Shown: piece after piece, positions 40,963 through 41,281 of the stretch
How the letters are laid out: each line of letters starts with the position of its first letter
How positions within the stretch are numbered: position 1 is the first letter of the stretch
Notes under the pieces: generated by a model
Database searches by the model: none
The model's input: the letters and a program-made list of their open reading frames with translations, nothing else
Told to the model about the DNA's origin: nothing
Made by a program: the position numbers and the translations under genes
Origin: Escherichia coli
Lineage (GTDB): Bacteria; Pseudomonadota; Gammaproteobacteria; Enterobacterales; Enterobacteriaceae
Assembly (NCBI RefSeq): GCF_030013595.1
Contig: NZ_CP122768.1
Direction: 5' to 3' (one strand)
Length of the DNA stretch: 64,000 nt

Positions 40963-41281
40963 AGTAGTCTCCTGAGGTTTTATTAGAATCATTATGTTTG
41001 AGCGTAGCGTTGGTAACGCTACCAGGCGCGTGAATGTTACCCCATTTTATGTATGGACATGTAGCGAAAACTACAACCTTGTCGTTCGCTTTGGCATCAC
41101 TTTCATTATAAAGACGGAATTTTGCATCAGCTTCTCATCAAGAAAAACAACTAAAAAATCAATCACAATACTTGTGCATTTCTTTAAACAGTTTTTAAAA
41201 ACTGACTCCGGGTATGGAGCTATGGGTATTTTCTCTACCCAATGCTTTTAACAGCAATTAATTTCATAGGATGAAAGCTCA

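What the first reader, a model, noticed from the sequence alone, without database searches (positions are those of the whole stretch)
40963..41281. narP-yejO intergenic region carries no insertion sequence and yejO is intact
From memory, K-12 carries an IS5 copy near narP/yejO and yejO is annotated as disrupted there. Here the 319 bp spacer has no transposase ORF and yejO encodes a full 863 aa autotransporter with signal peptide and beta-barrel. This is low novelty but relevant to strain background.
Basis: partly seen in the sequence, partly recalled or inferred. Interest (0 to 1): 0.2.

Follow-up and report, generated by a model that had tools for sequence, protein, structure and literature searches.

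The report
Intact yejO, no K-12 IS5
This E. coli window carries the ordinary wild-type narP-yejO region with an uninterrupted yejO autotransporter gene, whereas laboratory strain K-12 has a well-documented IS5 copy inside yejO, so the finding is correct but ordinary.

Summary
narP lies at 40315-40962 (-) and yejO at 41282-43873 (+). The 319-bp spacer between them has no insertion sequence. yejO is an intact 863-aa AIDA-I-type autotransporter.

One detail needs correcting. In K-12 MG1655 the spacer is also 319 bp and uninterrupted, with 3 SNPs. IS5K (1195 bp, TTAT duplication) sits inside yejO after nucleotide 67 (codon 23, in the signal peptide). That corresponds to window 41348|41349, 67 bp beyond the flagged interval. 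Removing IS5K and one TTAT restores an 863-aa ORF in K-12.

Among 5,426 complete E. coli genomes:
- 357 carry the K-12 junction, and all 48 evenly sampled ones are K-12 or laboratory derivatives by name, serotype or genome size.
- 5,049 have the empty site.
- About 1,140, such as LF82, carry a degraded or truncated yejO.

The window therefore shows the ancestral, majority state. It says "not K-12" and little more. The K-12 disruption is annotated in the MG1655 record and stated in papers, so this is already known.

The real strain-specific feature nearby is a 10.2-kb satellite of the phage-inducible chromosomal island (PICI) type. It is integrated at tRNA-Pro proL, about 115 bp downstream of yejO (43989-54170), and is absent from K-12 and from the closest genome.

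The parts
40315..40962 (-). narP, nitrate/nitrite response regulator (215 aa)
   Evidence: Translation. The same coordinates are annotated as narP in the near-identical genome NZ_CM149870.1.
40963..41281 (.). narP-yejO divergent intergenic spacer: 319 bp, 37% GC, no IS and no annotated gene
   Evidence: It has the same length in K-12 (3 SNPs at 41065, 41100, 41235) and in LF82, NIPH17_0020 and STEC388. At least 40 genomes are 100% identical, with no annotated feature under the match.
40963..41112 (-). Inferred narP 5' leader (150 nt from the distal start site mapped in K-12), including the RprA pairing site at -35..+4 of narP
   Evidence: Inferred by transferring K-12 data (PMC9262595) onto a spacer 99% identical to K-12. 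Not measured for this strain.
41282..43873 (+). yejO, intact 863-aa type Va (AIDA-I-type) autotransporter
   Evidence: Pfam finds AIDA, Pertactin and Autotransporter domains. Annotated 'autotransporter YejO' WP_064225523.1 in the 100%-identical record. It has 840/863 aa in common with the K-12 protein rebuilt by removing IS5K.
41282..41368 (+). Predicted Sec signal peptide of YejO (aa 1-29, MHQSGSVSLCRSAISVLVATALYSPIALA|ST)
   Evidence: Read from the sequence: a basic residue (R11), a hydrophobic core, and an A-L-A motif before the predicted cut. This is an inference by the -3/-1 rule; no predictor was run.
41345..41348 (+). Single, unoccupied TTAT that is the target-site duplication of IS5K in K-12. 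The K-12 insertion point corresponds to 41348|41349, in codon 23.
   Evidence: K-12 junctions read ...GCGTTAT|GGAAGGTGCG...CGCACCTTCC|TTATATTC, while the window reads ...GCGTTATATTC.
41831..42016 (+). Best-scoring AIDA repeat stretch of the passenger (aa 184-245)
   Evidence: PF16168, E = 1.6e-51 for the protein. The passenger matches Ag43, AIDA-I-family and TibA structures.
42572..42946 (+). Pertactin-like domain at the passenger C-terminus (aa 431-555)
   Evidence: PF03212, E = 7.5e-45. Matches pertactin 1dab and Vag8 7akv.
43085..43804 (+). Autotransporter beta-barrel translocator domain (aa 602-841)
   Evidence: PF03797, E = 1.2e-45. Matches the BrkA translocator 3qq2 over aa 582-863.
43934..43966 (+). 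Terminator-like hairpin after yejO (14-bp stem followed by a T run)
   Evidence: Consensus scan. In genomes without the island it lies directly against the 3' end of proL.

Best explanation
The window holds the ancestral, uninterrupted form of the narP-yejO locus of E. coli.

- **The spacer.** It is the ordinary 319-bp AT-rich divergent regulatory region. It carries the narP leader and an uncharacterised yejO promoter.
- **The gene.** yejO is an intact gene for a classical type Va autotransporter. It has a Sec signal peptide, a passenger built from AIDA-type repeats (beta-helical in the solved homologues Ag43 and TibA), a pertactin-like junction domain, and a C-terminal beta-barrel through which the passenger reaches the cell surface.
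- **The K-12 difference.** One event in the K-12 laboratory lineage explains it. IS5K (1195 bp) inserted in direct orientation after nucleotide 67 of yejO and duplicated TTAT. This cuts the reading frame inside the signal peptide and leaves a 29-aa stub.

Shown here: the structure of both alleles, the exact insertion point, and the population frequencies. Inferred: the secretion mechanism (from family membership), the adhesin role of YejO (annotation only), and the position of the narP leader (transferred from K-12 data).
For: - **K-12 annotation.** MG1655 annotates yejO as fragment 1 (67 nt), then IS5K/insH8, then fragment 2.
- **Junctions and spacer.** The junction sequences, the TTAT duplication and an identical 319-bp spacer are shown.
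- **Reconstruction.** Removing IS5K and one TTAT gives a 2,592-nt open frame of 863 aa. It differs from the window's gene at 59 nt and 23 aa.
- **Junction count.** The K-12 junction is present in 357 of 5,426 genomes. All 48 evenly sampled carriers are K-12 or laboratory derivatives by name, serotype or genome size.
- **Empty-site count.** The empty site is present in 5,049 genomes, and 357 + 5,049 equals all 5,406 genomes that matched.
- **Intact yejO elsewhere.** It is single-piece and full-length in O157:H7, E. coli B and many others.
- **Domain architecture.**
[quoted passage not shown] IS5 lies inside yejO in direct orientation (PMC11677980).
Against: - Nothing contradicts the structural conclusion.
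- An intact ORF does not prove expression or function. No experimental function for YejO was found in the library searched.
- The consensus scan found no sigma-70-like promoter in the spacer.
- The TTAT duplication does not fit the CTAA/CTAG sites that PMC11677980 mentions for other IS5 copies.
Confidence: 0.96

Rival explanations
1. The window descends from an IS5-bearing ancestor and lost the element by precise excision, so the intact yejO is a revertant rather than the ancestral state.
For: Only that a single clean TTAT is what a precise excision would leave.
Against: The empty site occurs in 5,049 of 5,426 genomes across very different backgrounds, including O157:H7, E. coli B, UTI89 and LF82. 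The occupied site is confined to K-12 and laboratory derivatives. The window's yejO differs from K-12's at 59 of 2,592 nt, so it is not a K-12 derivative.
Confidence: 0.01
2. The missing IS is an assembly artefact: a repeat was collapsed or skipped when the contig was built.
For: IS copies are often mis-assembled from short reads (general knowledge).
Against: The sequence is continuous and in frame across the site. It is 100% identical over 3.6 kb to two complete genomes. It matches the empty-site probe shared by 5,049 complete genomes. No IS5 fragment lies anywhere in the window.
Confidence: 0.01
3. yejO is structurally intact but is a silent, cryptic gene under ordinary conditions, as several E. 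coli autotransporter adhesins are. Intactness would then have little phenotypic meaning.
For: The spacer and the 5' end of yejO are AT-rich (37-40% GC, against 51.6% for the window). No consensus promoter was found in the spacer. In K-12 RNA-seq compendia yejO ranks among the least-detected genes, though it is disrupted there (PMC10392735). The gene decays repeatedly in nature: about 1,140 genomes have remnants or truncations, and yejO is reported missing from ST131 (PMC5654935).
Against: The full-length frame is kept in up to about 3,900 genomes. This reading is compatible with the main explanation rather than exclusive of it.
Confidence: 0.35

Closest known systems
yejO (b2190) / IS5K (insH8, b2192) locus of E. 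coli K-12 MG1655, NC_000913.3 2286390-2290499
   Same: Same genes in the same order (ccmH, narP, yejO, proL, yejM/lapC). The 319-bp spacer is the same length, with 3 SNPs. yejO is 97.7% identical in nucleotides once IS5K is removed.
   Different: The window has no IS5K and a single TTAT at 41345-41348, so yejO is open for 863 aa. K-12 also has a 176-bp REP-like insert between ccmH and narP that the window lacks. K-12 lacks the 10.2-kb island at proL.
Autotransporter YejO WP_064225523.1 of E. coli HCP5S3_I2 (NZ_CM149870.1), pig faeces, UK
   Same: 100% identical over narP, the spacer and yejO (3,601 nt), with identical annotation coordinates.
   Different: That genome has an IS3-family element between atoS and rcsC and an empty proL site. 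The window has no such IS3 element and an occupied proL site.
AIDA-I-type / self-associating autotransporters (Ag43, AIDA-I, TibA) and pertactin-family autotransporters (pertactin, Vag8, BrkA)
   Same: The passenger repeats match Ag43 (7koh, 4kh3), an AIDA-I-family adhesin (7ko9) and TibA (4q1q). The junction and barrel match Vag8, pertactin and BrkA. The Pfam architecture is the same.
   Different: No adhesion, aggregation or other activity has been shown for YejO in the papers searched. Sequence relatedness to those proteins is partial, by domain.

Membership tests
K-12-type yejO::IS5K pseudogene allele | IS5 (1195 bp, GGAAGGTGCG... terminal inverted repeats) present in yejO | tested here: not met
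   No IS5 similarity anywhere in the window. The left-junction probe matches only its yejO half in non-K-12 genomes.
K-12-type yejO::IS5K pseudogene allele | Duplicated TTAT flanking the insert after nucleotide 67 of yejO | tested here: not met
   There is a single TTAT at 41345-41348, and the sequence runs straight through.
Classical (type Va) autotransporter, AIDA-I type: YejO | C-terminal autotransporter beta-barrel domain | tested here: met
   PF03797 at aa 602-841, 156.7 bits against a cut-off of 26. The BrkA translocator 3qq2 aligns to aa 582-863.
Classical (type Va) autotransporter, AIDA-I type: YejO | Passenger domain with AIDA-type repeats and a pertactin-like junction | tested here: met
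   PF16168 at 172.7 bits and PF03212 at 152.2 bits. Matches to Ag43, TibA and pertactin structures.
Classical (type Va) autotransporter, AIDA-I type: YejO | N-terminal Sec signal peptide | tested here: inconclusive
   The sequence has a typical basic, hydrophobic and A-L-A layout, but no signal-peptide predictor was available.
Classical (type Va) autotransporter, AIDA-I type: YejO | Orthology with K-12 YejO: same locus, colinear full length | tested here: met
   Same flanks (narP, proL). The protein is 863 aa in both, with 23 aa differences and no indels.
Classical (type Va) autotransporter, AIDA-I type: YejO | Surface display and adhesin activity | not testable with these tools
   Needs expression and adhesion or aggregation assays. 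No published test was found.
Gram-negative phage-inducible chromosomal island (PICI), for the island at 43989-54170 noticed in passing | Integrase at one end, alpA regulator, pri-rep gene with adjacent iteron origin, about 10 kb, specific attachment site, no full set of phage structural genes (features as described in PMC6092414) | tested here: met
   The integrase is at 52721-53962, alpA at 51987-52193, and the RepA-family primase/helicase at 48855-50270. CCTCACTTTTT iterons lie at 48530-48857, next to the primase/helicase gene. The island is 10,181 bp and sits at the 3' end of proL, with an imperfect copy of the tRNA end at the far side. Only a DUF2213/protease-like gene and a small-terminase-like gene relate to packaging.
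Gram-negative phage-inducible chromosomal island (PICI), for the island at 43989-54170 noticed in passing | Induction, replication and packaging dependent on a helper phage | not testable with these tools
   Needs induction and transfer experiments.

The most novel reading that the evidence does not exclude
The intact allele might matter through its regulatory context rather than its structure. The window's spacer allele differs from K-12 at three positions. Two of them (41065 and 41100) fall at +48 and +13 of the K-12-mapped narP mRNA, inside the first 50 nt that PMC9262595 found sufficient for a second, unexplained mode of RprA control. The third (41235) lies in the loop of a TGGGTA-N7-TACCCA palindrome 41-59 nt upstream of yejO. 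If these changes alter narP control by small RNAs or yejO expression, a common natural allele would behave differently from the K-12 reference.
Probability: 0.04. Interest if true: 0.25.

Novelty: already known. Interest (0 to 1): 0.06.

Why it matters
It matters little. The result confirms that the window is not from the K-12 laboratory lineage. It also shows that the K-12 reference misrepresents this locus: yejO is an open 863-aa autotransporter gene in most E. coli. That serves as a caution for annotation transfer, and for anyone using K-12 delta-yejO as a neutral 'wild-type' marker in other strains. It offers no new biology. The K-12 insertion is in the reference annotation and in published papers, and the intact allele is already named YejO in RefSeq.

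Tried and rejected
- **Transposase or IS remnant in the spacer.** The only ORF (85 aa, 40994-41251) has no Pfam match. There is no IS5 similarity.
- **Known RNA families around the locus.** In 39500-45000 there were only two sub-threshold chance matches, both at the yejO terminator.
- **Consensus promoter scan.** It found no sigma-70-like site in the spacer, and the count for the region was below the shuffled expectation. I noticed a perfect TATAAT on the narP strand (41110-41105), but no -35 element lies at a usable distance, and it does not fit the published 150-nt or 78-nt leaders. I did not pursue it.
- **Spacer SNPs as strain-specific.** All four comparison genomes differ from the window at 41065, 41100 and 41235. 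However, at least 40 genomes share the window's allele exactly, so the allele is common.
- **Whole-window identity with HCP5S3_I2.** I first assumed it. A direct comparison failed, and BLAST showed two structural differences.
- **Anti-phage defence genes in the island.** PADLOC gave no hits for ten island ORFs.
- **A lambda or phi80 cos site in the island.** There is no match with fewer than 2 mismatches.

Full report
**What is at the coordinates**

The window encodes narP on the minus strand at 40315-40962 (215 aa). yejO lies on the plus strand at 41282-43873 (863 aa, a single terminal stop). The flagged interval 40963-41281 is exactly the 319-bp spacer between the two divergent start codons.

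The spacer is AT-rich: 37% GC, against 51.6% for the whole window. Its only ORF of 60 aa or more (40994-41251, 85 aa) has no Pfam match. That ORF is not annotated in MG1655 or in the near-identical genome HCP5S3_I2.

A BLAST of IS5K against the whole window gives only chance matches of 18 nt or less, E >= 0.22. Rfam finds nothing credible in 39500-45000.

YejO has AIDA repeats, a Pertactin domain and an Autotransporter beta-domain, all far above the Pfam cut-offs. It matches solved structures of Ag43, an AIDA-I-family adhesin, TibA, Vag8, pertactin and the BrkA translocator. The N-terminus, MHQSGSVSLCRSAISVLVATALYSPIALA|ST, reads as a Sec signal peptide. That is my reading of the sequence; no predictor was run.

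**Comparison with K-12**

MG1655 annotates yejO (b2190) as a pseudogene in two pieces:
- fragment 1 of 67 nt,
- then IS5K (2288919-2290113, carrying insH8),
- then fragment 2.

In the window's orientation the K-12 junctions read ...GCGTTAT|GGAAGGTGCG...CGCACCTTCC|TTATATTC. The window reads ...GCGTTATATTC. The element is therefore 1195 bp with a TTAT duplication, inserted after nucleotide 67. That is codon 23 (Tyr23), in the hydrophobic core of the signal peptide. The corresponding window position is 41348|41349.

Read-through in K-12 yields a 29-aa stub. Removing IS5K and one TTAT restores a 2,592-nt frame of 863 aa with no other lesion. It differs from the window's gene at 59 nt and 23 aa.

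The spacer itself is 319 bp in K-12 too, with three substitutions at 41065, 41100 and 41235. But the polymorphism lies 67 bp beyond the flagged interval, inside the gene, and not in the intergenic region.

**How the alleles are distributed**

All counts are among 5,426 complete E. coli genomes.

| State | Genomes | Source |
|---|---|---|
| K-12 yejO::IS5 left junction (67-nt probe, full length) | 357 | |
| Empty site (67-nt probe, full length) | 5,049 | |
| Matched either probe (the sum of the two rows above) | 5,406 | |
| At least 80% of yejO covered in one place (includes the 357) | 4,281 | |
| Less than 80% of yejO covered | about 1,140 | |

A 54-nt probe that can only seed across the junction again gave 357 full-length matches. 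All 48 evenly sampled ones are K-12 or laboratory derivatives by name, serotype or genome size: MG1655, W3110, DH5alpha, C600, J53, MC4100, BW25113, TOP10, HMS174 and O16:H48 isolates. A few are labelled with non-laboratory sources, but they have K-12-sized genomes of about 4.6-4.9 Mb.

Up to about 3,900 genomes (72%) therefore have a colinear yejO without IS5K. These include O157:H7 and E. coli B.

Examples from the class with less than 80% coverage:
- LF82 has a 909-bp remnant lacking the equivalents of window 41754-42757 and 43215-43843. It is annotated as frameshifted and truncated.
- STEC388 has yejO cut at 41512 by a Mu-like prophage.

A further class, which stays above 80% coverage, has an in-frame deletion in the AIDA repeats and gives a 789-aa protein, as in NIPH17_0020.

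This agrees with a report that yejO is missing from ST131 but present in ST38, ST405 and ST648 (PMC5654935).

The window's spacer allele is itself common.

**What it is and how it works**

The window shows the ancestral, majority state of the locus. The K-12 state is a single IS5 transposition confined to the laboratory lineage.

Precise excision from an IS-bearing ancestor is effectively excluded by the distribution and by the 2.3% divergence from K-12. An assembly artefact is excluded too: the sequence is continuous and in frame, it is identical to two complete genomes, and it matches thousands of others.

By family membership, YejO should follow the type Va pathway. That means Sec export, insertion of the C-terminal barrel in the outer membrane, and passage and folding of the repeat passenger on the surface. 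This step is inferred, not shown. No functional test of YejO turned up in the library.

Whether the intact gene is expressed is open. The region is AT-rich and no consensus promoter was found in the spacer. PMC11677980 calls PyejO putative and uncharacterised. The gene also decays repeatedly in nature. I rate 'intact but usually silent' as a live caveat (about 0.35) that is compatible with the main conclusion.

By transfer from K-12 data, the narP-proximal 150 nt of the spacer (40963-41112, minus strand) should be the narP 5' leader. It would include the RprA pairing site at -35..+4 (PMC9262595).

**What is known already**

Everything in this finding is already on record:
- IS5K and the split yejO are in the MG1655 reference annotation.
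- The IS5 copy inside yejO, in direct orientation, was deleted experimentally in PMC11677980.
- The intact protein is named 'autotransporter YejO' in RefSeq.

Novelty: already known. Interest is low.

**What else differs in the neighbourhood**

Aligning the whole window to K-12 and to the closest genome showed that the real strain-specific structure is elsewhere. A 10,181-bp island at 43989-54170 lies between the yejO terminator hairpin (43934-43966) and tRNA-Pro(GGG) proL (54172-54248). It is absent from both K-12 and HCP5S3_I2.

Its genes, all on the minus strand:
- a tyrosine integrase next to the tRNA,
- alpA,
- a protein with an Icd/repressor-like C-terminus,
- a DUF4222 protein,
- a RepA-family primase/helicase followed by CCTCACTTTTT iterons,
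- a ProQ/FinO protein,
- PerC,
- a DUF2213 protease-like protein,
- a small-terminase-like HTH protein.

This is the gene set and layout of Gram-negative phage-inducible chromosomal islands (PMC6092414). No PADLOC defence family was hit.

Related mosaic islands sit at the same site in pig ETEC strains, but only 7 genomes cover at least 80% of this one. The proL site is unoccupied in 4,953 of 5,426 genomes.

K-12, for its part, carries a 176-bp REP-like insert with a duplicated terminator hairpin between ccmH and narP. It also has extra sequence between rcsC and rcsB and between eco and mqo.

Noticed in passing
window 43989-54170 (flanked by the yejO terminator at 43934-43966 and tRNA-Pro proL at 54172-54248): A 10.2-kb integrative element lies at the 3' end of proL and is absent from K-12 and from the closest genome HCP5S3_I2. 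It has a PICI-type satellite layout: integrase, alpA, RepA-family primase/helicase with adjacent CCTCACTTTTT iterons, DUF4222, ProQ/FinO, PerC, DUF2213 and a terS-like gene. An imperfect copy of the tRNA 3' end (TGGTCACGAGAGTATTCAAAAC) marks the far junction. Only 7 of 5,426 genomes cover at least 80% of it, mostly pig ETEC. The proL site is empty in 4,953 of 5,426 genomes.
   Followed up: partly
window 44885-45146: A cluster of TTGACACTTTTT-containing direct and inverted repeats lies just downstream of the island's small-terminase-like gene (45147-45674, minus strand). It may be a packaging site or a regulatory array. No lambda or phi80 cos match was found.
   Followed up: no
window 44047-44072 and 54028-54053: A 26-nt direct repeat (25/26 identical, CGTATAGCT[T/A]AACGTGTAGCTAAAAA) lies about 60 and 120 bp inside the two ends of the island. 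These are candidate integrase arm-type sites.
   Followed up: no
window 40281-40314 (ccmH-narP spacer): The window has a 34-bp spacer with a single bidirectional terminator hairpin. K-12 has 210 bp there. The extra 176 bp consists of two REP-like palindromes and a second copy of the hairpin.
   Followed up: yes
window about 12306-12310 (atoS-rcsC intergenic): The closest genome, HCP5S3_I2, has an IS3-family element of about 1.3 kb here that the window lacks. The window's strain is therefore a close relative (99.93-99.97% identity) but not that genome.
   Followed up: partly
window 15256-15345 (rcsC-rcsB) and about 27138-27248 (mqo-eco): K-12 carries extra sequence at both intergenic sites relative to the window: roughly 115 bp and 560 bp, judged from the gene coordinates. 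These are probably REP/BIME-type repeats, but they were not examined.
   Followed up: no
window 41223-41241: A palindrome, TGGGTA-N7-TACCCA, lies 41-59 nt upstream of the yejO start codon and is preceded by a GGGTATGGAGCTATGGGTAT direct repeat. The spacer SNP at 41235 falls in its loop. It is a possible operator or 5'-leader hairpin of unknown meaning.
   Followed up: no
window 1-2495 (yfaS region): From the coordinate offset, the window start should fall in the gene that HCP5S3_I2 annotates as an intact alpha-2-macroglobulin family protein. K-12 annotates the corresponding gene, yfaS, as a pseudogene, which would be another K-12-specific lesion in this neighbourhood. It was not checked in the window itself.
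   Followed up: no
L005 (NZ_CP041425.1, STEC388) 5001-10231: In this pig STEC strain yejO is truncated after about 230 nt by a Mu-like prophage, so yejO is disrupted by different mobile elements in different lineages.
   Followed up: partly
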